The position numbers were made by a program, and so were the translations under genes. Positions 861-64,000 of a DNA stretch of 64,000 nt are shown piece by piece. The stretch's first letter is position 1. Every line of letters begins with the position of its first letter. Location: positions 1 through 64,000 of the IMG/VR virus record IMGVR_UViG_3300046694_000202; one strand, given 5' to 3'. The DNA comes from a virus. Below the pieces are notes generated by a model. It saw only the letters and a list, made by a program, of their open reading frames with translations, did not search any database and was not told where the DNA came from.

Positions 861-3577
861 GCTGTTGCTTCCTCTTCTTGCTCGACGGGCATCCCGTCAA
901 GGATGTAGTCCAAAATCGCCTTGCGTTCTTCCCGCGTGGCACGTTTGCCGTAGCGGTCCTCGGAGATGCAAGGCAACCCCTTCTGCATTTCCATCAGTTC
1001 AACCTGCCCGTTCGTCGAAGACTTCGGGTTCCACGCCTGCAAGGTCTTGCCGATCGCAAGCGACGAGTCGAGCTTCAGGTTCTTCATCAGGCCCGCGTCG
1101 TCGATCATCACTTCATAGAAGTCGTCGCAGAAGTCGATCACCTGTGAGCGCGGTACGCTGTAGATCAACTCGTCATGCACGAGCAGATAGAAGCGAGCGC
1201 GGTAACCCTTGCTGCGAATCATGTCGTCCATGCGGATCATGGCGCGCTTCGCGAGCGACCCACCGAGGCCCTGCACCTTCGCGTTCACACACTGGTTACC
1301 AGCTCGGCGGTTGATCTTCTTGATCACCAGCTCGCCGAACGCTGCGATGCCGGGGTCGCGGTAAGTGTCGAACTTCATCCGCATGACGTTGACCCACTCG
1401 GTCGTCGCTTCGAACCGGTCGCGGCGATGGTGGTCGGGCAGCTCGACGTAGCCCAGCTCGCGCGCTTCGTTGATCGTGGTGACACGCCACTCTTCAGCGA
1501 CCGAGAACGTAGTCCGGTACTTCTCGACCATCTCCCACATGAAGTCGCTCGACCAGCCCAGCGCTTCGCCAGTCGTGCCCAATGCCCCGCTGTACCAGTA
1601 CCCGAAGTTCGCGGGCTTGCCGATGTCGGTTCGCAGTTGCTTCTTGTTCGGGTTGTTCTCGTACTCTTCGTCGGTCAAGCCCATCAGACCGACCACGGCT
1701 TCCTTGTGCAGATCTTCGTGCGGGCGCTGGCCATAGGCCTTGCGGAACTTCGGATCGTTCGAGTAATCCCCGATGATCACCAGCTCCACCGCTGACCAGT
1801 CGGCCGACACGAGCACGTGCTCTTCGCCTTCCGCGTCGTCGTCGTCGGCCTCGAAGAAGCCACGAACGTACGCGGCCTCGCCGAACTTGCTCAGCTGCTG
1901 GCCGTTCGGGTTCGAGCATGAGCTGCGGCGCGTGGCCAGCATCGAGCTGAGCTGCGGATAGACGCGGCCCGTCTCCGGATCCACGAGGCACAGGTACGGC
2001 GTCAGGTAGAGCTTCACGCGCTGCGCGAGGCCTGCCATCTCCTTGTACGTGCGGAACACCGTGGCGCCCGCCTCGTAGCGCTCGATCTGCTGGCGCGTGG
2101 CGAGGTTGCCGAGCGTGTTCCAGTCCTCGGCCATCTTCACCGCAGGATCGACCTCGCCCGTCTTCTCGTCGATGGGCAGGCCCGCGTCGACGAACTTCTT
2201 GGTCCAGCGGCGCTGCAGCTCCTCGCGGCAGTCACCGTCGCTCTGCGTCTTGCCATCGGCCTGCATGTACGAGCCGCGCAGCAAGTCATAGATGATGGTC
2301 CGCATCGGCATGTAATGAACGAGGTTCACGCCGCTCGATTCCTTCACGCCGCGCTCGATCGACCATGCCGCGGAGACCGGGCTGCGCACCTGATGGCACT
2401 GCTCGAAGTCGTCGCCGCTGTCGGCCGACATCGCCCACTTCTCGATCTGCGCGCGGTACTTCTTATAGCCCGTCGAACCCTTGACCGGGTCCACGTACCA
2501 TTTGTCGTACTTGGCCAGCTTCTCGTGAGGCTCATCATCGAACGGCAGCAGCGCGCGGATCGCAGCCTTCATGGTTCGCAGGCAGCGCGCCTCATTGCCG
2601 CGCTCGATGTCGCGGCGTGCGAGGACGGCCGGCCCGTTGAGCTTGATGCCGTGCTGCCACGCTTCCGACGCCTTCCGAACGAAGGGCATCTCCTGCTGCA
2701 TGAACGTGCCGAAGACCGGAGGGTTGGTCTGCATGATGAACTGCATCAGGCGGTGGAAGAGCTGCACACACCAGTACGCGTCGTCCACGCCGTACTCGAA
2801 CACTTCCTCGCCCGTCAGCATCCCCATGTGGACTTCTTCGCCCAGCGTCTCTTCGAAGGTCGCCATCTGGTAGCCGAACCAGCTCAGCACTGCGCGCTTC
2901 AGGTCGTAGCCGATCTTGATCGATGCCACGTATCCGTTGTAGCTGTGCGCCGAGGTCGACTCCTTGGCCGTGACCTTGTAGACGAGATCTTCCTGATCGG
3001 CGTTGAGCGTCATACCCTGCTCGTAGCCAGCGAACGTGCGTGCCACGATAGGCAGCAGCTTCTCGATGCCACCGAGTCCAGGCTCGCGGAACTTGTCTTT
3101 GAAGTACGTGTCGGGGCTGTACGCGGTCACGCACATCTGCAGCGTGCAGATGACCTTCGTGCCGAGATCGTAGCCGAGCGACTTCTGCATCATGGTCCAC
3201 TCGAAGCCCGCGTTGTGGATCAGCCAGTACGAGTCAGGCTGCTTCGCGTCGAGCAAGCGCTTCGCCCGCGCCCAAGACACGCGGTTCTCCACGTCCTTGT
3301 GCGCAAGGTTCACGTAGTAGCCGTGGTAGTTGCCGTCCGGATAGATCGAGAAGCCCGTCACAGTCGTGCGGTTCGTGTCGAAGATCAGGCGGGTGGACGA
3401 CGACTTCTTGCCTTCGTCATCCACCTTCATGAAACGGTTCAGGCCTGCATGGCGGCGGCTGTCTTCCGTCTCGATGTCGAAGCCGACGAAGCCAGCAGCA
3501 GCCACTTCAGCGATGATCTTGTCGGCGTACTGGTCCCAGTTGCGCGCGTCGATCAGAATTTTTTGGTCGCGGTTCAC
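857..3577 (-). CDS. DNA polymerase, family A, with N-terminal 3'-5' exonuclease
   Basis: Exo I FDIETED; motif A ADWSAVEL; motif B RTDIGKPANFGYWY; motif C LVHDEL; 906 aa. Confidence 0.95.
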   Translation of the reverse strand: MNRDQKILIDARNWDQYADKIIAEVAAAGFVGFDIETEDSRRHAGLNRFMKVDDEGKKSSSTRLIFDTNRTTVTGFSIYPDGNYHGYYVNLAHKDVENRVSWARAKRLLDAKQPDSYWLIHNAGFEWTMMQKSLGYDLGTKVICTLQMCVTAYSPDTYFKDKFREPGLGGIEKLLPIVARTFAGYEQGMTLNADQEDLVYKVTAKESTSAHSYNGYVASIKIGYDLKRAVLSWFGYQMATFEETLGEEVHMGMLTGEEVFEYGVDDAYWCVQLFHRLMQFIMQTNPPVFGTFMQQEMPFVRKASEAWQHGIKLNGPAVLARRDIERGNEARCLRTMKAAIRALLPFDDEPHEKLAKYDKWYVDPVKGSTGYKKYRAQIEKWAMSADSGDDFEQCHQVRSPVSAAWSIERGVKESSGVNLVHYMPMRTIIYDLLRGSYMQADGKTQSDGDCREELQRRWTKKFVDAGLPIDEKTGEVDPAVKMAEDWNTLGNLATRQQIERYEAGATVFRTYKEMAGLAQRVKLYLTPYLCLVDPETGRVYPQLSSMLATRRSSCSNPNGQQLSKFGEAAYVRGFFEADDDDAEGEEHVLVSADWSAVELVIIGDYSNDPKFRKAYGQRPHEDLHKEAVVGLMGLTDEEYENNPNKKQLRTDIGKPANFGYWYSGALGTTGEALGWSSDFMWEMVEKYRTTFSVAEEWRVTTINEARELGYVELPDHHRRDRFEATTEWVNVMRMKFDTYRDPGIAAFGELVIKKINRRAGNQCVNAKVQGLGGSLAKRAMIRMDDMIRSKGYRARFYLLVHDELIYSVPRSQVIDFCDDFYEVMIDDAGLMKNLKLDSSLAIGKTLQAWNPKSSTNGQVELMEMQKGLPCISEDRYGKRATREERKAILDYILDGMPVEQEEEATA

Positions 3578-4359
3578 AGCAGGAAGTCCTTCAGCACGTC
3601 GTTAAGCACGCGGTCATCCTTCTGGCCGACCACGAGATTTTCGAAGATGTCTTGCAGGGGCACGTCGTAGAAGCCAGTGATCTCCCACATGGCCTTCAGC
3701 GTCGGCTCGTTGTTCTTGACCCATTCGAGGGTCTTCTTGCCGAGATTGAAGCTCCCCGATTCGCTGTCCCAGCAAGGCACGTAGCCTTCCGTGAAGTACT
3801 GGAGCCAGCGCTCACGGTCACAGTGCTCCCATGCCTTCGGGCCGAAGCCGGGGATGCCGGGGATCTTGTCCGAGGAGTCGCCGACGAGCGTCTTCATCAA
3901 CCGCACTTCGGTGTGGTCGGTGTTCTCGTACGAGTCCTTCTTCGTGCCGGTGATCGTCGTGTGCGCGCCGTCGCACACCGCGAGATAGTCGCCGTCGTTA
4001 GAGTGGATCCTGATGGAGTCCGTGTTCGGGCGGTAGTGCCGAGCGAGCTGGACGATCACATCATCAGCTTCCCACCCCTTGATCTCCAGCGACATGCAGC
4101 GCGTGAAGCGCAGCACTTGCTTGAAGAGATCCATTGTCTTGTAGAACGAGTCGGATGCCGGTTGGCGTCCAACCTTGTAGCCGGGGAATACCTTGCGCCT
4201 ACGGTCTTTGGAACCATAGCCGTCCCATACCCAGATGATCGTGTCGAACATCGGGAGCATGTTCATCTCGAACAGCACATCGCGGATGGTGCCATTCGCC
4301 TCGAATTTGATGCGGAACTGGTTGTTCCCATCGATCAGATGCAGAGTGCGTTGTGACAT
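3574..4359 (-). CDS. 5'-3' exonuclease / flap endonuclease (T4 RNase H / PolI N-terminal family)
   Basis: LIDGNN, R..FPGYK..R, EADD, SNDGD, and H3TH motif LVGDSSDKIPGIPGFGPK; start placed at ATG 4359. Confidence 0.92.
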   Translation of the reverse strand: MSQRTLHLIDGNNQFRIKFEANGTIRDVLFEMNMLPMFDTIIWVWDGYGSKDRRRKVFPGYKVGRQPASDSFYKTMDLFKQVLRFTRCMSLEIKGWEADDVIVQLARHYRPNTDSIRIHSNDGDYLAVCDGAHTTITGTKKDSYENTDHTEVRLMKTLVGDSSDKIPGIPGFGPKAWEHCDRERWLQYFTEGYVPCWDSESGSFNLGKKTLEWVKNNEPTLKAMWEITGFYDVPLQDIFENLVVGQKDDRVLNDVLKDFLL

Positions 4360-54336: not shown

Positions 54337-57300
54337 ATGACCGACGCAGTAATTCCCTTCCGTGGGGCGGGCGGTGGCCAGAAGCAGCCGACCCGCACCG
54401 ACGACAACCTCTTCTCTCGCGACGTAGTCGAGATCGTCTTTGCCCTCGGCGAAGGCCCGATCCGCGGCCCGGTCGACGGTATGAAGTCGATCTACGTGGG
54501 CGGCACGCCCGCGATGTCGCAGGACGGCTCCACGAATTTCGACAGCTTCAACGTCGGTATCATGCGCGGCCACGCGGGCGATCCGCCGGTCAACTATCGG
54601 CTCGGTGGCGAAACCTCGAACACGTCGGTCGGCGTTCGACTCTTCCAGAACACGTGGGTCTCGCGCACGACCGATGACTCGCTGCGCAACAAGGTTGACC
54701 AGCTCCAGGCGCGGATTCTCTTCAACACGCTGTACAAGTCCAACGACGATGGCACGTTCAACAACACCGCGTCGTTCGAACTCCAGTATCGCCAGTCGAC
54801 CAACCCGAACTGGTCAGCGGTCAACGGTGGCACGATCAACGTCACAGGCAAGACCACGGCTGGCTATGTGGTCGACTATGTGTGGGACGTGCCGCGCGTG
54901 AATGACACGTGGGTCATCCGCGTGAAAAAGAACAACCCGGATTCGAGCAACACCGACTTCTGTGACTTTAGCTGGGAGAGCTTTCAGGAAGTCACGAAGG
55001 GCAACCGCACGTACGACCGCGTGGCCCTCATGCACATCGTCGCGCTCGCGACGAGCCAGTTCTCGTCGGTGCCCGACATCGGCATCGATCTGGACGGTCT
55101 CGAGATTTTGGTCCCGACGAACTACAACCCCGACGCGCACGCAACCGCTGGCACGTGGGATGGCTCCTTCAAGCAGGCGTGGACGAACAATCCGGCGTGG
55201 ATCCTGTACGACCTCATCATGAACACGAGCTACGGGCTGCGGAAATATTACCCGTGGCTCACGTGCAACCGCTTCGACTTCTACGACGCGGCAGCATGGT
55301 GCGACGCGCCTGTCCCGAACGGTGTGGGTGGCTCGCAGCCGCGCTACACGTTCAGCATGGTCGTCAAGGACCAGCAGTCGGGCCTCGACATGCTCCAATA
55401 CGTGGCGGGTTCCTTCGGCGCGTGCATCTTCGATGACGCGACGGGAACGGTGCATCTGCGCGTGGACAAGTGGGAAGAGCCGTCTATGCTCTTCACCCCA
55501 GAGAACGTGACCCCGGAAGGCTTCGCCTACACGTTCTCGGACATGAGCACTCGATACAACGACATCGAGGTCAAGTTCGTGAACCCGGACCTGGACTGGC
55601 AGCAGGACATCCGGCCCGCGCGCAATCAGGATCACATCAATCTCAACGGCAGCATCCCACTCTCCTTTGACGCCATCGGCTGCACGAACGAGCACGAAGC
55701 ACTGCGCCGCGCCTACTATCGCCTCGTCACGGCCACGACGGAAGTCGCGACGGTGCAGTTCACGACCACGCGCCTCGGCGTGCTGCTCGACCCCTTCAAG
55801 CCGATCTACGTCGCCGACCCGGTGACGGGCTGGGCCGAGAGCGGCCGGATCAAGTCGATCATCAACGGCAAGATCAACCTGCGCGACCCGATCTACTTCA
55901 CGAGCAACCAGAACTACACGCTGAAGCTGCAGACCACCACGGGCATCTCGACGTTCACTGTGAACCCCGGCATGATCGGCTCGGTGTATGCGCTCAACAT
56001 CGTGTCTGGCATCGTGCCGGCGAACGTGCCTGATCGCTCGGTGTTCTCGCTGGAGGACACAGGTGGCTTCGGTCTGTCGAAGCCGTTCCGTGTGATCTCG
56101 GTGGAGCCGGCCGACAACAGCCCGAACGCATACTCGGTCACCGCTGTTGAGATGAACATCAACAAGCAGTGGGCCGCAGACAACTGCATCCCGATCGGCT
56201 CGGTCCCGTACTCGTTCAAGAACCCGCTGATTCCGCCGCCGCCGAGCAACCTCGTCTGCGAGTCGGGCACGGACATGCTGCTGCTCGGGCAAGACGGCTC
56301 GATCATGGCGCGGATCTTCGCCCACTGGGATCCGCCCGGTAGCGCGCTGGTCGACCGCTACATCATCCGCTGGAAGGAAAGCCTCCAGAACACGTGGTTC
56401 GAGACGAACTCCACGGGCGAGAGCGTCATCCTCGCACCGTGCAAGACCGGCACGACCTACGACATCGTGATCGAGGCGGTGAGCGCGTTCGGCTATCGCA
56501 GCTCGCAGCTGCAGCTCTGGAACTATAAGTGCGTCGGCAAGGACCAGCCGCCGAGCAACGTGAAGAACTTCCGCTTCACGCGCCGCGCGCTCGACATCCT
56601 GCTGACGTGGGATGCGATCCCTGACTTGGACCGCTTCGGCTACGAGCTGCGCCTTGGCTCCACGTGGGACACCGCGAAGGTGCTCGTGACCGACTACGCG
56701 GCCACGCAGTTCGCCTGGACGACGGACACGGGCGGCAGCTACAACTTCCTGATCCGCGCGAAGGACACGTCGGGCAACCTGTCGCTGCAAGCGACGATCT
56801 GCTCGGCGCTGCTCACCGGCCCGTCGCCGGTTGGCGGCGTCATCGCGATCCAGTCGGGCAACCGCGTGGACTTGCGCTGGGATCCGAACCCCGAGGACAA
56901 CATCCTCGACTACGAGATCCGCGAAGGCTCGACGTGGGCCACCGGCATCTTCTTGGCGAAGGTCAAGTCGACGAGCTACAGCGTGACCGCTGGTTCGTCT
57001 GGCACGCGCCTCTTCTGGCTCAAGGCCATCGCCTCACCGGGGATCTACTCCGACAAGGCGACGTTCGTCACGACCGACATCGCGAAGTCCGACAACACGA
57101 ACATCATCTACACCACAGACGAAGTGGTGAACCAGTTCGCCGGCACGAAGTACAACATGGTCACCTACGGCCCCGCGCAGCTGCGGATGGACGACGGCAA
57201 GGCCAAGTCGGAATACATGTTCTCGGTCGCGCTCGCGGACGTGTTCAAGGCACAGAACTCGCTGTTCATCGGCCTGGACGCGATCGTCGACGACAAGACG

Positions 57301-57921
57301 ACCTGGGCGCAATCGACCTATCCTTGGAAAGACCCGCAAGCGAACAAGGGCTGGACGACCCCTGGCGACGTGGCGTCGATCAAGTACTCGATCCAGATCT
57401 CGATGTCGACGGGCAACCCGACCGGCGTGCTGTACCAGTGGCGCATGGACAACACGCTGACTTACGCGGGCGTTGGCGAAGATGGCTCGGTCACCGAAAG
57501 CCAGACGGTCACGTACAAACCGAGCAAGTACGGCGCCGGACTCTACTGTCAAGTCGCCCCGCTGCAACCGCTGCCGACGAAGGTCACGTTCAGCACCAAC
57601 GTGCCGAACATCTTCAGCACCACGTTCTGGATCCTGCCGGATGACCTGACCGACAAGGTGTTCATGACGGTGGTCGGCCGTGACGGGAAGTTCATCAAGC
57701 TCGGCTACACCGCCGCCACCCTGTCGCTGTATGCGATCGACAACGATGGCACGAAAGTCTCGATGCCGATCGGTCTCGCAGTGGGCGAGCGCTTCCTCGT
57801 CGGTCTGTCGCAAGACACGAACGATCGCCGGATCTACTTCGCGAAGGAAAGCGGCGCGTGGTATCGCGCGTCGATCGCCAAGGGTGGAATCGGCGCTGGC
57901 GTCCAAGTCAAACTCTACTGA
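54337..57921 (+). CDS. Central tail tip / host specificity protein (gpJ-like)
   Basis: LGEGPI.G, WDGSFKQAWTNNPAWILYD, QPRYT and Fn3-like repeats; 1194 aa. Confidence 0.92.
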   Translation: MTDAVIPFRGAGGGQKQPTRTDDNLFSRDVVEIVFALGEGPIRGPVDGMKSIYVGGTPAMSQDGSTNFDSFNVGIMRGHAGDPPVNYRLGGETSNTSVGVRLFQNTWVSRTTDDSLRNKVDQLQARILFNTLYKSNDDGTFNNTASFELQYRQSTNPNWSAVNGGTINVTGKTTAGYVVDYVWDVPRVNDTWVIRVKKNNPDSSNTDFCDFSWESFQEVTKGNRTYDRVALMHIVALATSQFSSVPDIGIDLDGLEILVPTNYNPDAHATAGTWDGSFKQAWTNNPAWILYDLIMNTSYGLRKYYPWLTCNRFDFYDAAAWCDAPVPNGVGGSQPRYTFSMVVKDQQSGLDMLQYVAGSFGACIFDDATGTVHLRVDKWEEPSMLFTPENVTPEGFAYTFSDMSTRYNDIEVKFVNPDLDWQQDIRPARNQDHINLNGSIPLSFDAIGCTNEHEALRRAYYRLVTATTEVATVQFTTTRLGVLLDPFKPIYVADPVTGWAESGRIKSIINGKINLRDPIYFTSNQNYTLKLQTTTGISTFTVNPGMIGSVYALNIVSGIVPANVPDRSVFSLEDTGGFGLSKPFRVISVEPADNSPNAYSVTAVEMNINKQWAADNCIPIGSVPYSFKNPLIPPPPSNLVCESGTDMLLLGQDGSIMARIFAHWDPPGSALVDRYIIRWKESLQNTWFETNSTGESVILAPCKTGTTYDIVIEAVSAFGYRSSQLQLWNYKCVGKDQPPSNVKNFRFTRRALDILLTWDAIPDLDRFGYELRLGSTWDTAKVLVTDYAATQFAWTTDTGGSYNFLIRAKDTSGNLSLQATICSALLTGPSPVGGVIAIQSGNRVDLRWDPNPEDNILDYEIREGSTWATGIFLAKVKSTSYSVTAGSSGTRLFWLKAIASPGIYSDKATFVTTDIAKSDNTNIIYTTDEVVNQFAGTKYNMVTYGPAQLRMDDGKAKSEYMFSVALADVFKAQNSLFIGLDAIVDDKTTWAQSTYPWKDPQANKGWTTPGDVASIKYSIQISMSTGNPTGVLYQWRMDNTLTYAGVGEDGSVTESQTVTYKPSKYGAGLYCQVAPLQPLPTKVTFSTNVPNIFSTTFWILPDDLTDKVFMTVVGRDGKFIKLGYTAATLSLYAIDNDGTKVSMPIGLAVGERFLVGLSQDTNDRRIYFAKESGAWYRASIAKGGIGAGVQVKLY

Positions 57922-57923
57922 TC

Positions 57924-58391
57924 ATGCCGCATACCATCTCCGACATCACCTTCAAGTCGACCGTGCTCGACGACGACAGCTTCGTGAAGAAGGTCAACTA
58001 CGACGCCCCGGAGGGGTTCTCCCCCTTCCAGAACTTCTTCGCGGGCGACTACACGTACAAGAACGCGATCTTCCGGCTCGGGATGGAGTCGGAAGCAGGC
58101 GACCGCGGCATCATCAACAAGCTGCAGCTGGTGGTCGACGTGCCCGACATCTTCGACCGTGGCCTCACGATCGTGAACACGGCCGGCATCATCCGCGTGT
58201 TCTTCAACCGCCCTTTTCACATCCCGCCCACGATGGTCGTGGCGGTGGAAAGCGCGAGCGACGCCTGCGTGGCGCGCGTGGTTTCCGGAGCGCTCGGGGT
58301 CACAAAGACCTACTTCGACTGCTATCTCGAACGCACGAGCGACAAAGCGAAGATCACCGGAGCGTTGACGTGGGCCGCGCACGCCTACTAA
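57924..58391 (+). CDS. Tail tip accessory protein
   Basis: ATG 57924; VDVPD, F..PF..PP.., W.A..Y beta-sandwich-like pattern. Confidence 0.6.
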   Translation: MPHTISDITFKSTVLDDDSFVKKVNYDAPEGFSPFQNFFAGDYTYKNAIFRLGMESEAGDRGIINKLQLVVDVPDIFDRGLTIVNTAGIIRVFFNRPFHIPPTMVVAVESASDACVARVVSGALGVTKTYFDCYLERTSDKAKITGALTWAAHAY

Positions 58392-58451: not shown

Positions 58452-59936
58452 ATGCAGAATTACACCCAGATTCCGGACAGCCAGCGGATCTCCGATTCGC
58501 TGCTGCCGCTCCTGAATAACGACCAGACCGGGATCTCGCGCAACGCCGGGGACAACTACCCGACCATCGGTCTCGTCGTGGGGATGCCCTACTACAGCAC
58601 GAGCCAGAACAAGCTGTTCCGCCTGTCGAGCCTGTCACCGCTCACGTGGGTGGTCGAGATCGACTACAACCGGCCGTACGCGTATCAGGATAGCGTCGAT
58701 GCTGCAAACGCAAACGCCAACGGGCGCGTGTCGCGGGCCGGCGACATCATGTCGGGCTTCCTCACGCTGAGCGGCGACCCGACCGCCGCGCTGCACGCCG
58801 CGTCGAAACGGTACGTCGATGCGCAGACCACCGTCGCGATCAACAGCGCGAACTCGCGCGTCTCGCGCGGCGGCGACAGCATGTCTGGTTTCCTGACGCT
58901 GTACACCGACCCGCAGCAGCCCTACCACGCCGCGACGAAGAACTACGTCGACGTGTACATCAACAGCTTGGCGGGCAGCAAGCTCGCGAAGAACGGCGAC
59001 ACGCTCGGCGAAGTGTTCAACAACGGCTGGTATCGCTCAAACGGCGCGGTGGGCTGGTACAACCAGACGTATGGTGGCGGCATCTTCCAGAACCAGGGGG
59101 GCTACGTCAGCACCTTTGGCGGCACAGGCTTCCTGACTCCGTGGCACACGCTCGAAGTGAACACGGGCGGCATCTGGACGGCGCGCTACGGCTGGCTCGA
59201 AAACCGGTTCGCGGACAAGAGCGCCGAGGGCAGCTTCAACTCGTGCGGCACGCTGAACAACTCGACGAACCCGACCGTGGTCCCCGGCTCGTTCTATCTC
59301 CAGGCGAGCGGCCGTCAGGTGCAGCTCGTGCGTACCTTCGGCAACTGCAACTGCAACTGCGCCTGCACGTGCTTCCCCGCAGGCACGCGGATCCTGATGG
59401 GCGACAAGAAGACGTGGCGCGCGGTCGAGACGCTGCAGGTCGGCGAGATCGTCATGACCCCGACCGGCCCCGAGCCGATCCTTGAGATCGAGACGCCGTA
59501 CCTTGGCTCGCGCAAGATGTGCATGTTCGCCGACGGCTCGCTGAAGTGGACCGATGACCACGCGTTCTGGACGCGCCGCGACGGCGTGCAGGGATTCTCG
59601 GTGGTCGACAAGGACTCGTTCATGAACGGCGTCGAGGCGGGTCTCGTGAAGGGCCTGAAGAACCACGACGACCTGCTGGTGATGAACGACCGCCTGGACG
59701 AGTTCGCGCACCTTGAGGGCTGGAAGAAGAAGCGCGTGTTCCGCTACACGCAGCCGGCCGAAACGAAGGTCTATCTGCCGATCGTCGGTGGCTCGCACAT
59801 GATCATCGCTGAAGGCTTCGTCGTCAGCGCGGGCATGGACGAAGAGACGTTCGACTACAAATCGCTGGACTGGAAGGGCATGGACATCGCTCACCAGCCA
59901 ATCAACCGTGAGGCGTTCTTCGATGCTCGTTCATAA
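58452..59936 (+). CDS. Tail fibre with Cys-X repeat and C-terminal Hint autoprocessing domain
   Basis: Fibre repeats VSR.GD.MSGFLTL..DP....HAA.K.YVD (x2); GNCNCNCACT then CFPAGTRILM (Hint block A), TDDH (block B), VYLPIVGGSHMIIAEGFVVSA (block F/G-like). Confidence 0.85.
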   Translation: MQNYTQIPDSQRISDSLLPLLNNDQTGISRNAGDNYPTIGLVVGMPYYSTSQNKLFRLSSLSPLTWVVEIDYNRPYAYQDSVDAANANANGRVSRAGDIMSGFLTLSGDPTAALHAASKRYVDAQTTVAINSANSRVSRGGDSMSGFLTLYTDPQQPYHAATKNYVDVYINSLAGSKLAKNGDTLGEVFNNGWYRSNGAVGWYNQTYGGGIFQNQGGYVSTFGGTGFLTPWHTLEVNTGGIWTARYGWLENRFADKSAEGSFNSCGTLNNSTNPTVVPGSFYLQASGRQVQLVRTFGNCNCNCACTCFPAGTRILMGDKKTWRAVETLQVGEIVMTPTGPEPILEIETPYLGSRKMCMFADGSLKWTDDHAFWTRRDGVQGFSVVDKDSFMNGVEAGLVKGLKNHDDLLVMNDRLDEFAHLEGWKKKRVFRYTQPAETKVYLPIVGGSHMIIAEGFVVSAGMDEETFDYKSLDWKGMDIAHQPINREAFFDARS

Positions 59937-60630
59937 AAGCCTGATCCCCACGGATCTCACCGAAGAGGAAGCGCAGCAGACCGTTGACATCGTCAACGTT
60001 CTGCCGGTCGGCAACGGCTTCACGATGCAGTGCGCGTCGCTGAGCCTCTACTGGCAGTTCAATCTCGACCTCGTCAAGTACGGCAACGACGTGATGTACC
60101 TGTGTCGTACCCGTACCAACCAGTGGGTCGTGATGTGGGCCACGGATCTGCACGAGTCGAAGGACAGCTTTTCCTCGGCTATGCTGCGCAAGAACGTGGA
60201 TGAGTTCAAACCAGTGGTGATGATCGGCATCAACGCGGACAAGACCGACTACACCGCCCTCTTCTTCTGCAACTCGCGCGAACCTAACAACCCGAATCCC
60301 CAGGTTGATGACGCCGCCGAGAGTGGTGACATGACGATGAAGCGGTTGATGCCATCGATCGAGCCGTTGTTGCAACGTCATTGGGCCAAGCACAAGCTGC
60401 TCAAGGACACGAAAACGAACGACTCATTGGCCGCTCTGGAGGCCCAAGTGGACCTGCTCACGAGCTGGCTGCTGATGCTCCTGCCCCTGCAGGCCGACAA
60501 GCTCCAAAGACTCCTTGACGTTGGCGTGCTGACGTTGAAAGATAGTGACGTAGCCCTGGATGACGTGGTCGCATTTAAAAGCGCACTCCGTGAAAGGCAG
60601 GCGCTTTACCTCGCGACTATCGGCAAATGA
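59923..60630 (+). CDS. Hypothetical protein coupled to the tail fibre and radical SAM genes
   Basis: ATG 59923 overlaps the fibre 3' end; ATGA overlap with the radical SAM gene. Confidence 0.75.
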   Translation: MLVHKSLIPTDLTEEEAQQTVDIVNVLPVGNGFTMQCASLSLYWQFNLDLVKYGNDVMYLCRTRTNQWVVMWATDLHESKDSFSSAMLRKNVDEFKPVVMIGINADKTDYTALFFCNSREPNNPNPQVDDAAESGDMTMKRLMPSIEPLLQRHWAKHKLLKDTKTNDSLAALEAQVDLLTSWLLMLLPLQADKLQRLLDVGVLTLKDSDVALDDVVAFKSALRERQALYLATIGK

Positions 60631-61988
60631 CAACCTTCGTTCTCAAGACGCTCGACGCTAACAACGTCGAGCGTCGGTTTTTCTACAACAACATGCGCAG
60701 CACGCTGGTCGAGGCACAGACCGGCCGCTCGGTGATTCCGACTCGAGCCGCAGACACCCCGCAAAGCCCCGCCCAGCAAGACTTCCGCAAATCGAAAACG
60801 ATCCGGACGCTGAAGATCCAGCTCGGTCTCTCGTGTAATTACAGCTGCGATTACTGCTCGCAGCGCTTCGTGCCGCACGACGAGCCGACTGGCCCCTACT
60901 CCGTCGACCACTTCATCTCGCGCTTGAGCTGGAACGCCTCGCTCGCCGACGATGCCACGATCGAGTTCTGGGGTGGCGAGCCGCTGGTCTACTGGAAGAC
61001 GCTGGTCCCGCTGGTCGAGCAGCTGCGCATCCGCTACCCCGCGCTCACGTTCCGCATGATCACGAACGGCTCGCTGCTGGACCCGATGAAGGCGAGCTGG
61101 CTGATCACGAACGGCTTCCACATCGGCATCAGCCACGACGGTCCTGGCCAGCACGTGCGCGGCCCCGATCCGCTCGATGATCCGGAGAAGCGCGAGGCGA
61201 TCCTCATGCTGTACCGGCGCCTGCGTCCGCTCGGCCGTATCAGTTTCAACGCGATGCTGCACTCGCAAAATACGTCGCGCGCGGCGATCCAGCAGTTCTT
61301 CGTGAAGCTCACGGGCGACGAGGAAGTGCCGGTCGGTGAAGGCATGTTCGTCGATGCCTACGATGAAGGTGGCCGGGGCATGTCTTTCCTTGACGCCGCG
61401 GATCACGTCGAATATCGTCGCAAGGCGTTCACCGAGCTGAAGTCTGGGCTGGCCCTCAACTTCGGATCGGTGACCGAAAAGATTCACGACTTTGCAGAGT
61501 CAGTCGCCACGGGTCGGCCGGCGTCTACCGTAGGGCAGAAGTGCGGTTCCGATCGCGCGGACACCCTCACGGTGACACTGACAGGCGACGTTCTCACTTG
61601 CCAAAACGTCTCGGCTGTTTCCGTTGCCCCGAACGGGAAGAGCCACCGCGCTGGCAATTGGGACGAAATGGATCAGGTGCGGGTCGCCTCCTCGCGCCAC
61701 TGGTCGACTCGTGAGCACTGTTCGAGCTGCCCGGTCGTGCAATTGTGCAAGGGCAGCTGCATGTTCCTCGAAGGCGATCTCTGGAATGTCACGTGCGATA
61801 CGGCCTACAGCGATAACGTCGTGTTCCTCGCGACCGCCCTTCTGGAGCTGACCGGCTGCACCCTGCAACGCATCGAGCCGATGACTGGCTCGTTGCCTGA
61901 GCACCGCCAGGACGTTTTCACGCCACTGGCGAAAAAGAGCGGGACCACCACCCCGCGCAAAATCATACGGATCAACACGGAAAAGTAA
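60627..61988 (+). CDS. Radical SAM enzyme with SPASM domain
   Basis: CNYSCDYC (CX3CX2C, 60834-60857), FWGGEPL, TNG, ISHDG; SPASM-type CGS...GDVLTC and CSSCPVVQLCKGSC...C. Confidence 0.93.
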   Translation: MTTFVLKTLDANNVERRFFYNNMRSTLVEAQTGRSVIPTRAADTPQSPAQQDFRKSKTIRTLKIQLGLSCNYSCDYCSQRFVPHDEPTGPYSVDHFISRLSWNASLADDATIEFWGGEPLVYWKTLVPLVEQLRIRYPALTFRMITNGSLLDPMKASWLITNGFHIGISHDGPGQHVRGPDPLDDPEKREAILMLYRRLRPLGRISFNAMLHSQNTSRAAIQQFFVKLTGDEEVPVGEGMFVDAYDEGGRGMSFLDAADHVEYRRKAFTELKSGLALNFGSVTEKIHDFAESVATGRPASTVGQKCGSDRADTLTVTLTGDVLTCQNVSAVSVAPNGKSHRAGNWDEMDQVRVASSRHWSTREHCSSCPVVQLCKGSCMFLEGDLWNVTCDTAYSDNVVFLATALLELTGCTLQRIEPMTGSLPEHRQDVFTPLAKKSGTTTPRKIIRINTEK

Positions 61989-61990
61989 TC

Positions 61991-62266
61991 ATGGATCAGC
62001 AACCGCAACAGCAAGACCCGACGCCCCTCATCCGCGCTCTGCAAGGCCAGCGCAACGAAGCGCTCGACCACATGGCCGACGCACGTGCCGCACTCGAATT
62101 CACGCAAGCACAGCTGCGCGGCGCGACCGAAGCGCTCGCCGTGCAAGAGTCGCTGGTCGACGACCTGCGTATGCAGCTCGACACGACGAAGGCAGCGATG
62201 GCCGTTCTGCAAGAACAGCTCGAAGCCGCGCGCGCACCGCAGGCTGAACTCACACTGGTGGAGTAA
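61991..62266 (+). CDS. Small coiled-coil protein
   Basis: 91 aa, Ala/Gln/Leu-rich heptads, starts 2 nt after the radical SAM stop. Confidence 0.7.
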   Translation: MDQQPQQQDPTPLIRALQGQRNEALDHMADARAALEFTQAQLRGATEALAVQESLVDDLRMQLDTTKAAMAVLQEQLEAARAPQAELTLVE

Positions 62267-62449: not shown

Positions 62450-62475
62450 AAGGACACCTACGGGTGTCCTTTTTC
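62450..62475 (+). terminator. Intrinsic terminator closing the tail / radical SAM unit
   Basis: AAGGACACC-TACG-GGTGTCCTTTTT. Confidence 0.8.
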
Positions 62476-62556
62476 ATTTGCCGTCCGAAACTCTTTGTAT
62501 CGAGTAAACCCCGTCGATAAAATTTGGGCCACTCACCACCACAACGAGTGCCCACG

Positions 62557-63873: not shown

Positions 63874-64000
63874 ATGGCCAATACCGGTCTTCCGACAAAC
63901 CCGGATGGGCAGTCCGTAACCACGGTCATCGCCCCGGTTCTGTCGACCTCCCCTCACGCAGCGATCAAGATCCTGTATGGCTCGGGTGTACCCGCGACCA
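63874..64000 (+). CDS. Start of a further gene (truncated)
   Basis: AAGGA SD, ATG 63874, MANTGLPTNPDGQ..., open to the window edge. Confidence 0.55.
   Translation, partial: MANTGLPTNPDGQSVTTVIAPVLSTSPHAAIKILYGSGVPAT

What the first reader, a model, noticed from the sequence alone, without database searches (positions are those of the whole stretch)
58452..62266. Candidate new system: tail fibre with Cys-X tip, Hint domain and dedicated radical SAM/SPASM maturase
Seen: four tightly coupled genes at the end of the tail module, closed by a terminator at about 62450-62475. They are a 494-aa fibre, a 235-aa unknown, a radical SAM protein (CX3CX2C plus SPASM-type cysteines) and a 91-aa coiled coil. 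The fibre body ends in FGNCNCNCACT immediately before a Hint domain. Established: SPASM radical SAM enzymes mostly modify peptides or proteins at or through Cys (sactipeptide and ranthipeptide thioethers, anaerobic sulfatase maturase). Inference: the C-x-C-x-C-x-C segment is the substrate, so the phage would apply RiPP-like chemistry to a structural receptor-binding protein, with Hint cleavage exposing or activating the modified tip. No nucleotide-modification or cofactor genes lie nearby to explain the enzyme otherwise. I do not know of a characterised example, but cannot exclude one without a literature search.
Basis: partly seen in the sequence, partly recalled or inferred. Interest (0 to 1): 0.95.

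Follow-up and report, generated by a model that had tools for sequence, protein, structure and literature searches.

The report
Radical-SAM module for cysteine-laddered phage fibre
This 83-kb phage makes a tail fibre whose body ends in an Asn-Cys "ladder" capped by a self-cutting Hint domain, and the iron-sulfur (radical SAM) enzyme two genes downstream sits beside such ladders in almost every related phage locus sampled, so phages probably modify the tips of these fibres enzymatically, a step described in none of the papers my searches returned.

Summary
Four coupled genes follow gpJ: a 494-aa fibre, a 235/240-aa unknown, a 453-aa radical SAM/SPASM enzyme and a 91-aa protein, closed by a terminator.

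The fibre body ends N298-C-N-C-N-C-A-C-T306. Cys307 then opens a Hint-like domain (profile versus PDB inteins, E 3e-6).

- **Enzyme to ladder:** of 163 rSAM-homologue loci with at least 2.5 kb upstream, 157 carry a same-strand ORF with an Asn-Cys ladder.
- **Exceptions:** at least two of the six are deletion or rearrangement remnants.
- **Ladder to enzyme:** 9 of 13 loci with an in-frame NCNCNC in an ORF of 150 aa or more have the enzyme, against 0 of 67 other loci.
- **Ladder position:** it lies at the extreme C-terminus, or directly before a Hint whose Cys1 and block-B His are conserved. Hint is therefore an optional cap that would expose the same end.
- **Non-core genes:** the 235-aa and 91-aa genes are lineage-specific.

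The chemistry is inferred, not shown. Thioether cross-linking is most likely.

Earlier notes of this scan report the same module on other genomes. My paper searches found no description.

The parts
57858..58391 (+). 177-aa protein between gpJ and the fibre. It is a conserved neighbour, possibly a fibre adaptor. It is context only and not shown to belong to the module.
   Evidence: ORF; homologues precede the ladder fibre in L001 and L004-L011. In L012, L017 and L019 the homologous part is the C-terminal portion of a 396-455-aa protein.
58452..59936 (+). Tail-fibre precursor, 494 aa: N-terminal anchor, two fibre repeats, a beta-rich body, the Asn-Cys ladder and a C-terminal Hint-like domain.
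   Evidence: weak PHROG tail-fibre hits. (residues 85-186 match annotated tail-fibre proteins). (same gene order in Achromobacter phage JWF). (alignment A1).
59343..59369 (+). Asn-Cys ladder N298-C-N-C-N-C-A-C-T306, the proposed substrate of the radical SAM enzyme. It would become the C-terminus of the mature fibre after Hint cleavage.
   Evidence: DNA. (C299, N300, C301, N302, C303 and C307 invariant in 9 fibres). (the ladder recurs next to the enzyme).
59370..59933 (+). Hint-like autoprocessing domain, C307 to S494. Cys1 is C307 and block B is T366-D-D-H369. There is no terminal His-Asn and no C-extein, so it is predicted to cleave only.
   Evidence: profile versus PDB: 8w20_A E 3e-6 over residues 303-377; PI-SceI 0.0023. 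(three Pfam Hint models below threshold). (His about 63 residues after Cys1 in 16 of 16 Hint-type fibres).
59923..60630 (+). 235-aa protein of unknown function (240 aa from GTG 59908). It has an invariant helical motif near its C-terminus. It is an accessory confined to a narrow lineage.
   Evidence: no family. (alignment). (19 clusters, all 'hypothetical'). (in 20 of 127 related loci). (no relatives by profile, PDB or Atlas).
60627..61988 (+). Radical SAM/SPASM enzyme, 453 aa. CX3CX2C lies at 60834-60857 and the seven-Cys SPASM motif at 61542-61796.
   Evidence: PF04055. (TIGR04085 above cut-off; the named maturase families are all far below theirs). (phrog_1802, E 8.4e-62). (anSME aligned over 68-379). 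(invariant Cys). (266 representatives at E<=1e-30).
60647..60685 (+). Terminator-like hairpin (11-bp stem, then a T-run) inside codons 7-20 of the enzyme gene. It may attenuate enzyme expression.
   Evidence: scan. (folds of homologous sites). (12 pairs, 5 of them with compensatory changes in 9 sequences).
61991..62266 (+). 91-aa protein coupled to the enzyme gene. It is lineage-specific and its role is unknown.
   Evidence: (homologues only in L004-L006). (weak match to JWF gp031, E 9e-5). (no match to the small protein that follows the enzyme in L014).
62450..62481 (+). Intrinsic-terminator-like site that closes the unit, ahead of the lysis cassette.
   Evidence: JWF has an annotated terminator at the same position.

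Best explanation
This is a fibre-tip maturation module of a JWF-like siphophage.

The 494-aa side fibre is made as a precursor. Its body ends in an Asn-Cys ladder (N298-T306) and is capped by a cleavage-only Hint domain. The radical SAM/SPASM enzyme encoded two genes downstream acts on the ladder.

The most likely reaction runs as follows:
1. A ladder Cys thiolate binds the open iron of auxiliary cluster I.
2. The enzyme abstracts a hydrogen from a neighbouring residue (Asn, Ala or Asp).
3. A thioether (ranthionine- or sactionine-type) cross-link forms. It could lie within one chain or between chains of the fibre.
4. The reaction repeats along the ladder.

The Hint domain then, or beforehand, performs an N-S acyl shift at Cys307 and cuts between T306 and C307. 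The modified ladder is left as the free C-terminus of the fibre. The product would be a covalently stapled, reduction-proof tip.

Shown: the genes and motifs, the Hint and SPASM signatures, and the near-obligate genomic pairing of enzyme and terminal ladder.

Inferred: that the ladder is the substrate, the thioether chemistry, the order of events, and the effect on the virion. The 235-aa protein is probably a lineage-specific helper (chaperone or recognition partner).
For: **1. Pairing of enzyme and ladder.** fetched 160 loci with an alignment of the enzyme.
- 127 loci have at least 2.5 kb upstream, and 121 of these carry a same-strand Asn-Cys ladder ORF within 7 kb.
- A further scan with distant representatives gave 36 of 36 new informative loci.
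- The loci span siphophage-like prophages of Burkholderiales, Rhodobacterales and Rhodospirillales, an Ackermannviridae phage (RSP15) and a jumbo phage (RP12). The genes lying between ladder and enzyme differ among them.

**2. Reverse test.** The enzyme is present in 9 of 13 loci with NCNCNC in frame in an ORF of 150 aa or more, and in 0 of 67 other loci that share the same 18-mer.

**3. Ladder rule, from 88 distinct ladders.**
- 79 start NCNC.
- Residues between the Cys are N 59%, A 18% and D 11%.
- In the 70 Hint-less cases the ladder ends 0-2 residues from the stop in 57 cases and within 5 residues in 69.
- In Hint cases, Cys1 follows the ladder by 0-3 residues.

**4. Hint catalysis is kept.** Cys1 is invariant and the block-B His is present in 16 of 16 Hint-type fibres.

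**5. Enzyme type.**
- SPASM domain with exactly seven invariant Cys.
- The CrpC paper states that a seven-Cys SPASM leaves an open iron on AuxI that could bind a substrate Cys (PMC13692751, Discussion).
- The best partial NCBIfam hits are peptide and protein Cys-modifying maturases: PapB, QhpD-type, anSME and CcpM.

**6. Precedents read here.**
- CrpC installs thioethers in a 28.8-kDa protein (PMC13692751, abstract and Discussion).
- PapB can use a C-terminal carboxylate as the acceptor site (PMC12373016, abstract).
Against: - There is no direct evidence of any modification. No mass spectrometry, virion proteomics or structure was available.
- Pfam's Hint models are all below threshold.
- The enzyme scores far below the cut-off of every named maturase family. 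Its best PDB match by sequence is a cyclopropylglycine-type RiPP synthase (8VPO), over the rSAM core only. The sequence therefore does not fix the chemistry.
- Six informative loci lack a clear ladder: L085 (degenerate ladder), L090, L101, L134, L175 and L182.
- Adjacent N-C spacing would give very small rings if the links were intrachain.
- Most related loci carry an extra 2OG-Fe(II)-oxygenase-like gene that is absent here. The pathway may therefore differ between lineages.
- The loci are sampled from related sequence families, so the counts are not independent events.
Confidence: 0.68

Rival explanations
1. The enzyme acts on the ladder, but the chemistry is not thioether cross-linking. It could convert Cys to formylglycine as anaerobic sulfatase maturase does, epimerise residues, or form C-C bonds between side chains.
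For: - anSME is the only solved structure that aligns over both the core and the SPASM domain (residues 68-379, E 7e-6).
- JWF's GenBank record calls the homologue 'anaerobic sulfatase-maturating enzyme'.
- The best PDB hit by E-value, 8VPO, is cited in a paper on radical SAM cyclopropyl synthases (listing only).
- The sequence is far below every family cut-off.
Against: - There is no sulfatase-type motif around the Cys and no sulfatase gene nearby.
- Strict alternation and invariance of Cys, with N/A/D between them, fits donor-acceptor pairs better than single-residue oxidation.
- The seven-Cys SPASM with a putative open AuxI site fits the reading given for the thioether-forming CrpC. That anSME's auxiliary clusters are fully ligated is recalled, not tested here.
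Confidence: 0.15
2. The ladder is a metal- or iron-sulfur-binding site on the fibre's three-fold axis, comparable to the HxH iron sites of T4 gp37. The enzyme has another role, or merely helps load or protect it.
For: - Alternating Cys in a trimeric beta structure would point inward on every second residue (inference).
- An earlier first-stage note on this window raised the same idea (e1-6118280).
- The Crp paper speculates that its modified Cys-rich protein may bind metals.
Against: - A metal site alone does not explain the near-obligate pairing with a radical SAM/SPASM enzyme across unrelated phage backbones.
- It does not explain why the ladder must be at the free C-terminus.
- It does not explain the preference for Asn/Ala/Asp between the Cys.
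- The gp37 analogy is recalled, not tested.
Confidence: 0.08
3. The enzyme's substrate is something else, such as a host envelope component, a nucleotide or a small peptide. It travels with ladder fibres only because both sit in one mobile tail-fibre cassette.
For: - The enzyme lies at the junction of the tail and lysis modules, a common place for morons.
- A few loci keep the enzyme without a ladder (L090, L101, L182).
Against: - The fibre bodies, the intervening genes and the phage types differ widely, while the ladder-enzyme pair persists.
- Even the 27%-identical enzymes of jumbo phage RP12 have a 65-aa ladder ORF upstream.
- Two of the ladder-less loci are demonstrably deletion or rearrangement products.
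Confidence: 0.05
4. The Hint domain is a ligase rather than a simple cap. Its thioester at T306 would be resolved by a specific nucleophile, such as a ladder thiol, the 235-aa protein or a host molecule. The result would be a cyclised or conjugated fibre end.
For: - Hedgehog-type Hint domains transfer the upstream chain to a nucleophile other than water (established knowledge, recalled).
- Cys1 continues the ladder's register.
- The 235-aa protein accompanies 10 of the 21 Hint-type loci.
Against: - Most ladders (70 of 88 distinct) have no Hint and end in a plain C-terminus.
- The 235-aa family also occurs with 10 Hint-less ladders.
- Hint state changed at least 4 times on the enzyme tree. This argues that capped and uncapped ends are equivalent.
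Confidence: 0.04

Closest known systems
CrpC/CrpA of Methanococcus voltae (Dieter et al. 2026, PMC13692751; abstract, Discussion and passages read)
   Same: A radical SAM enzyme with a seven-Cys SPASM domain is encoded next to a Cys-rich protein rather than a short peptide. It installs thioether (ranthionine) links in repeated Cys motifs. A neighbouring non-enzymatic protein may help.
   Different: - CrpA is a cellular protein of unknown function with a leader-like N-terminus, and CrpC has an RRE.
- Here the substrate would be a virion tail fibre and no RRE was detected.
- The motif here is a strict x-C alternation at the extreme C-terminus, sometimes capped by Hint.
- The paper's text does not mention phages. 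Its Supplemental Data set 1, which lists similar clusters across all domains of life, could not be opened.
NxxcB/NxxcA, a streptococcal radical SAM RiPP (review PMC9389541, passages read)
   Same: A Cys-to-Asn beta-thioether is made by a radical SAM enzyme. The acceptor tolerance (Asn, Ala, Gln, Asp) matches the residues found between ladder Cys (N, A, D and a little Q). N-C-N-C also contains the N-x-x-C spacing.
   Different: NxxcA is a short quorum-regulated peptide with one motif.
PapB/PapA (freyrasin) ranthipeptide system (NCBIfam NF047865; PMC12373016, abstract read)
   Same: It is the best-scoring named NCBIfam model (55.6 bits). It makes multiple consecutive Cys thioethers. It is carboxylate-directed and can use a peptide's C-terminal carboxylate, which may parallel the rule that the ladder is terminal.
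   Different: The score is far below the family cut-off of 340 bits. PapA has six spaced motifs pairing each Cys with a downstream Asp (CxxxD spacing recalled, not read; the abstract read gives Cys to Asp/Glu). It is a small peptide, not a fibre.
QhpD/QhpC maturation of quinohemoprotein amine dehydrogenase (NCBIfam TIGR03906; named as a precedent in PMC13692751)
   Same: A SPASM radical SAM enzyme modifies Cys residues of a protein subunit that stays part of a larger assembly. It is the second-best NCBIfam hit (45.9 bits).
   Different: The score is far below the cut-off of 453 bits. The target is a periplasmic enzyme subunit, not a virion part. The Cys-Asp/Glu link details are recalled, not read here.
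Self-cleaving C-terminal domains of phage fibres and spikes, and Hedgehog/BIL-type Hint domains
   Same: A C-terminal domain is removed autocatalytically after it has served during folding. Cys1 and the block-B His are conserved.
   Different: The known fibre chaperone domains (endosialidase and T5 L-shaped fibre type, recalled) are not Hint folds. My one search for Hint domains at fibre ends ('Hint domain' plus 'tail fiber') listed 4 papers. The one I opened describes a terminase intein.

Membership tests
Radical SAM superfamily (PF04055) | CX3CX2C cluster motif and a Pfam score above the gathering threshold | tested here: met
   30.9 bits against a cut-off of 29.5. C70, C74 and C77 are invariant in 13 homologues.
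SPASM-domain radical SAM enzymes (TIGR04085) | C-terminal seven-Cys motif CX9-15GX4C...CX2CX5CX3C...C, and the domain model above its cut-off | tested here: met
   32.5 bits against a cut-off of 27 (residues 306-380). C306-x13-G320-x4-C325, C365-x2-C368-x5-C374-x3-C378 and C390 are all invariant.
Anaerobic sulfatase maturase (TIGR03942) | Equivalog score of at least 349 bits | tested here: not met
   43.7 bits.
Anaerobic sulfatase maturase (TIGR03942) | A sulfatase substrate gene nearby | tested here: not met
   No sulfatase gene is among the neighbours.
PapB-family ranthipeptide maturase (NF047865) | Equivalog score of at least 340 bits | tested here: not met
   55.6 bits in two stretches.
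PapB-family ranthipeptide maturase (NF047865) | A small precursor peptide with spaced Cys...Asp motifs (spacing recalled) | tested here: not met
   The candidate substrate is a 494-aa fibre with x-C alternation.
QhpD (TIGR03906) | Equivalog score of at least 453 bits | tested here: not met
   45.9 bits.
QhpD (TIGR03906) | qhp operon context | tested here: not met
   The context is a phage tail and lysis module.
RiPP biosynthetic cluster | A short precursor with a leader and a core that is released as a peptide | tested here: not met
   The ladder is part of a 494-aa fibre-type protein with a conserved N-terminal anchor. Small ladder proteins of 65-138 aa do exist in other loci.
RiPP biosynthetic cluster | A RiPP recognition element (RRE) in the enzyme or in a partner | tested here: inconclusive
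   No Pfam or NCBIfam RRE hit was found in the enzyme's 60-residue N-terminus or in the 235-aa protein. No structure prediction was available.
Hint / intein superfamily | N-terminal nucleophile Cys1 directly after the cleavage site | tested here: met
   C307 is invariant in 9 fibres. It aligns with Cys1 of PI-SceI.
Hint / intein superfamily | Block B TxxH | tested here: met
   T366-D-D-H369. The His is present in 16 of 16 Hint-type fibres. The Thr varies (T, S, A or P).
Hint / intein superfamily | A curated Pfam model above threshold | tested here: not met
   Hint_2 13.8 bits, Hom_end_hint 13.1 bits and Vint 12.7 bits, against cut-offs of 27-32. The profile of nine fibres does reach E 3e-6 against an intein-domain chain in the PDB.
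Splicing intein | Terminal His-Asn plus a downstream C-extein nucleophile | tested here: not met
   The protein ends about 188 residues after Cys1, with no His-Asn at the domain's end and no C-extein. It is therefore cleavage-only at most.
Phage tail fibre | Position in the tail module | tested here: met
   The gene lies two genes after a gpJ-like protein (phrog_31, E 7e-162).
Phage tail fibre | Similarity to known fibre proteins | tested here: met
   Residues 85-186 match annotated tail-fibre proteins. PHROG tail-fibre hits reach E 3e-5.
Phage tail fibre | Presence in the virion | not testable with these tools
PHROG 1802 (phage radical SAM domain-containing proteins) | A significant match to the family profile over most of its length | tested here: met
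   E 8.4e-62, residues 36-418 against profile positions 23-416 of 556.

The most novel reading that the evidence does not exclude
Many tailed phages and prophages use a dedicated radical SAM/SPASM enzyme to staple the extreme C-terminal Asn-Cys ladder of a receptor-binding fibre with thioether cross-links, possibly between the three chains. The enzyme family has at least 266 clusters at 50% identity. This would be a RiPP-type post-translational modification of a virion structural protein. In several lineages a cleavage-only Hint domain has been recruited independently as a removable cap that delivers the free C-terminus the chemistry needs.
Probability: 0.45. Interest if true: 0.9.

Novelty: new variant of a known kind. 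Interest (0 to 1): 0.8.

Why it matters
- **A new place for known chemistry.** Enzymatic covalent modification of phage receptor-binding fibres by radical chemistry is not part of current phage biology, as far as my searches show. If real, RiPP-type chemistry would extend to virion structural proteins.
- **Unannotated genes explained.** It would account for a large, unannotated family of phage radical SAM genes.
- **Fibre properties.** It would point to a way of making fibre tips resistant to reduction, heat or proteases, or of giving them unusual binding surfaces.
- **A handle for study.** The (N-C)n tail next to this enzyme is a simple sequence rule for picking distal fibre-tip proteins out of metagenomes.
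- **Enzymology.** It would add a natural system in which one enzyme processes 3-10 adjacent Cys at a protein's C-terminus.
- **Hint biology.** The Hint cap would be a new use of Hint domains in viruses.
- **Testability.** Achromobacter phage JWF, a cultured phage, carries the same gene set, so the idea can be tested directly.

Tried and rejected
- **Structure prediction and complex prediction.** The Hint fold, the fold of the 235-aa protein, the ladder geometry and an enzyme/partner/ladder complex are all untested.
- **The 235-aa protein.**
  - No Pfam, PHROG or NCBIfam family.
  - No PDB relative by profile.
  - No usable Atlas hit; the Atlas's own model has pLDDT 0.42.
  - No profile similarity to the ~290-aa partner family of other loci, nor to the oxygenase-like or other intervening families.
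  - The homologue search gave 19 'hypothetical' clusters. Its role stays open.
- **The 91-aa protein.** No family was found. It is not related to the small protein that follows the enzyme in L014. I dropped it as a core part.
- **Fixing the chemistry from sequence.** NCBIfam and PDB hits are all partial and mixed: PapB, QhpD-type, anSME, CteB and a cyclopropyl synthase. I do not assign the enzyme to any of these families.
- **Reverse search by DNA pattern.** Most of the 80 loci hit the 18-mer in other reading frames or in short spurious ORFs. Only 13 were usable, so that sample is small.
- **Literature.**
  - Nine searches were run. None returned a paper on radical SAM enzymes acting on phage fibres, or on Hint domains at fibre ends.
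  - One search was wasted by a loose term setting.
  - The library lacks most subscription journals, and supplements were closed. In particular, Supplemental Data set 1 of PMC13692751 may list such clusters.
- **Rejected reading: the fibre acts as a giant leader for a released peptide.** The N-terminal anchor and fibre repeats are conserved, and no protease or exporter gene is present.

Full report
**What is there.** The window is the first 64 kb of an 83,429-bp virus record with direct terminal repeats. A gpJ-like central fibre protein (54337-57921; phrog_31, E 7e-162) and a 177-aa protein come first. Four coupled genes follow:
- a 494-aa protein (58452-59936);
- a 235/240-aa protein (59923 or 59908 to 60630);
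- a 453-aa radical SAM protein (60627-61988);
- a 91-aa protein (61991-62266).

A terminator-like hairpin with a T-run lies at 62450-62471. A GH19 endolysin and a holin follow. Achromobacter phage JWF and phage 2-1 have the same order, including an annotated terminator.

**The fibre.**
- Residues 85-186 match annotated tail-fibre proteins of many phages. PHROG tail-fibre families hit weakly.
- The N-terminal 70 residues are conserved in fibres that otherwise differ.
- The DNA at 59343-59369 is three exact AACTGC, then GCC TGC ACG. This gives N298-C-N-C-N-C-A-C-T306, followed by C307-F-P-A-G-T.
- C299, N300, C301, N302, C303 and C307 are invariant in nine related fibres.

**The Hint domain.**
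- Pfam's three Hint models match residues 306-344 only below threshold.
- A profile of the nine fibres matches an intein-domain chain in the PDB at E 3e-6 over residues 303-377. It matches PI-SceI at 0.0023, with Cys307 aligned on the intein's Cys1.
- T366-D-D-H369 is block B. A His about 63 residues after Cys1 is present in 16 of 16 Hint-type fibres examined.
- There is no terminal His-Asn and no downstream extein. The domain can only cleave at its N-terminus. Cleavage would leave the ladder as the C-terminus of the fibre.

**The enzyme.**
- PF04055 and the SPASM domain model TIGR04085 are both above their cut-offs.
- C70-x3-C74-x2-C77 and exactly seven SPASM cysteines are invariant in 13 homologues of 41-87% identity.
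- It belongs to phrog_1802 (E 8.4e-62).
- Every named maturase family scores far below its cut-off: PapB 55.6 against 340, QhpD-type 45.9 against 453, anSME 43.7 against 349.
- By sequence, the nearest solved chains are as follows:

| Chain | Identity | E-value | Region matched |
|---|---|---|---|
| 8VPO | cited in a cyclopropyl-synthase paper; listing only | 7.5e-8 | rSAM core only |
| 4k37 | anSME | 7e-6 | core plus SPASM |
| 5wgg | depositors' name 'Radical SAM domain protein'; that this is CteB is recalled | 7e-4 | residues 54-173 (rSAM core) |

- A search of 1.84 billion representatives gave 266 proteins at E<=1e-30 and 717 at E<=1e-10. This is a large family of its own.

**Does the enzyme go with the ladder?**
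- A first scan showed that nearly every homologue in viral contigs has an upstream ORF with an Asn-Cys ladder.
- I then fetched 80 viral and 80 genome loci with an enzyme alignment.
  - 127 loci had at least 2.5 kb upstream.
  - 121 of these had a same-strand ladder ORF within 7 kb.
  - 101 ladders were at the C-terminus and 16 were followed by Hint according to my pattern. Four more are Hint variants by inspection; three of them (L069, L095, L136) were also checked, and L097 is identical to L095.
- The six exceptions:
  - L085 has a degenerate ladder.
  - L134 has an enzyme identical to that of L133. It lacks a 1.16-kb piece that holds the ladder and the next gene.
  - L175 shares sequence with L174 only from just upstream of the enzyme.
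  - L090, L101 and L182 remain unexplained.
- The 32 loci with less upstream sequence say nothing either way.
- A further scan used ten distant representatives.
  - It added 41 non-duplicate loci, 36 of them informative, and all 36 had a ladder.
  - 34 ladders were terminal. One is Hint-type (L352). One lies inside a 2,090-aa ORF (L354).
- Control: 10 of 18,999 minus-strand ORFs end in such a ladder. At least three of them (L132, L137, L139) are antisense frames of real ladders.
- Reverse direction:
  - 80 loci hold the exact 18-mer.
  - 13 of them have NCNCNC in frame in an ORF of at least 150 aa, and 9 of those 13 carry the enzyme.
  - None of the other 67 does.
  - The four without the enzyme are L244 (only 608 nt of room, and the same contig as L011, which has the enzyme), L228 (3.9 kb of room), L255 and L265 (implausible contexts).

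**The rule of the ladder.** There are 88 distinct ladders.
- 79 begin NCNC.
- The residues between the Cys are N 59%, A 18%, D 11%, then R, C, T and Q.
- Uninterrupted runs hold 3-10 Cys, mostly 4-5.
- In the 70 Hint-less cases the ladder ends 0 residues from the stop in 39, within 2 in 57, and within 5 in 69.
- In the 18 Hint cases, Cys1 follows the ladder by 0-3 residues, often in register.

The mature protein would therefore end with the ladder in both forms.

On a FastTree of 131 enzymes, the Hint versus terminal state needs at least 4 changes. Shuffled labels gave a mean of 19.9 and a minimum of 16. This is FastTree only, with long branches flagged. Hint-type loci fall into a JWF-like group, a small L069/L136 pair, and a clade of loci whose record titles mostly name Rhodospirillales or Rhodospirillaceae MAGs. 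Hint thus looks like an interchangeable cap.

**Other genes.**
- The 235-aa protein has no family, no PDB relative and no usable Atlas hit. It has only 19 clusters of relatives. It occurs in 20 of 127 related loci, with and without Hint.
- Elsewhere its place is taken by other proteins:
  - a ~209-aa family in 74 loci, with two invariant His. One member of this family hits 2OG-Fe(II) oxygenase models;
  - a clear 2OG-Fe(II) oxygenase in 8 loci (PF13640, 34.3 bits);
  - a ~290-aa family in 36-37 loci;
  - in some loci, a second radical SAM gene.
- The 91-aa protein is confined to the JWF-like lineage.
- The conserved core is therefore ladder plus enzyme.

**How it probably works.**
- The pairing argues that the ladder is the enzyme's substrate.
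- Cys invariance, a seven-Cys SPASM and the N/A/D preference point to thioether formation.
- The CrpC paper reads a seven-Cys SPASM as leaving an open iron on auxiliary cluster I for a substrate Cys (PMC13692751, Discussion).
- NxxcB links Cys to the beta-carbon of Asn and also accepts Ala, Gln and Asp (PMC9389541, passages).
- CrpC shows that such enzymes can modify a whole protein (abstract).
- PapB can use a C-terminal carboxylate as its acceptor site (PMC12373016, abstract). This suggests why the ladder must be terminal and why a Hint cap would be useful.
- All of this is inference. Other radical chemistries, a metal-binding role and a ligase role for Hint are kept as rivals.

**What is known.**
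- Nine full-text searches returned no paper on a radical SAM enzyme acting on a phage fibre.
- The RP12/RP31 genome paper merely lists the radical SAM genes.
- The Crp paper's main text has no word starting with phage, viral or tail. Its supplement could not be opened.
- Earlier notes of this scan describe the same module on other genomes, with the same reading. I used them as leads to the Crp and NxxcB papers and repeated the counts myself.

**Verdict.** The chemistry is untested. I rate it a new variant of a known kind (radical SAM/SPASM maturation of Cys-rich substrates) in a new setting, the tip of a virion fibre.

Noticed in passing
window 60647-60685: A strong terminator-like hairpin (11-bp stem, 8 G-C pairs, then GGTTTTTC) lies inside codons 7-20 of the radical SAM gene. 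Homologous sites in JWF-like phages keep the stem, with compensatory changes (5 of 12 pairs in 9 sequences), and mostly keep the T-run. It may attenuate transcription so that the enzyme is made in smaller amounts than the fibre.
   Followed up: partly
L003 (Ralstonia jumbo phage RP12, NC_041911) 954-1151: An ORF of 65 aa, not among the record's annotated features, ends in an Asn-Cys ladder five residues before its stop. It lies just upstream of a cluster with three radical SAM genes (ORF076, 077, 079). One of these is 27% identical to the window's enzyme.
   Followed up: partly
related loci, e.g. L033 6379-7005, L035 6189-6812, L012 5264-5890: In 74 of 127 related loci, a ~209-aa protein with two invariant His lies among the genes between the ladder ORF and the enzyme. 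One member of this family hits 2OG-Fe(II) oxygenase models. In 8 more loci a clear 2OG-Fe(II) oxygenase (PF13640) lies between them. The window has the unrelated 235-aa protein instead.
   Followed up: partly
L134 versus L133; L175 versus L174: These are natural variants that keep the enzyme and have lost the ladder. L134 lacks a 1.16-kb piece that holds the ladder and the next gene, yet has an identical enzyme. L175 is related to L174 only from just upstream of the enzyme gene. They could be defective prophages or assembly artefacts.
   Followed up: partly
G000:C1 63874-68181 (starts in the window at 63874): A second, 1,436-aa fibre-like ORF follows the lysis genes and has no Cys ladder. The closest relative, L004, has a 1,196-aa protein at the same place that clusters with the ladder fibre by BLAST.
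   Followed up: no
L354 (about 4967) and L148/L149 (about 3331-3430): Unusual ladder placements. In L354 the ladder sits inside a 2,090-aa ORF, followed by a Gly run and 590 more residues. In L148 and L149 the ladder-bearing ORF lies downstream of the enzyme and continues for more than 100 residues.
   Followed up: no
L002 (Ralstonia phage RSP15, NC_030948) 3395-4267: The 'putative side tail fiber protein, fragment' of this Ackermannviridae phage ends in a minimal two-Cys ladder two residues before the stop. Two unknown genes and a 48%-identical enzyme follow it.
   Followed up: partly
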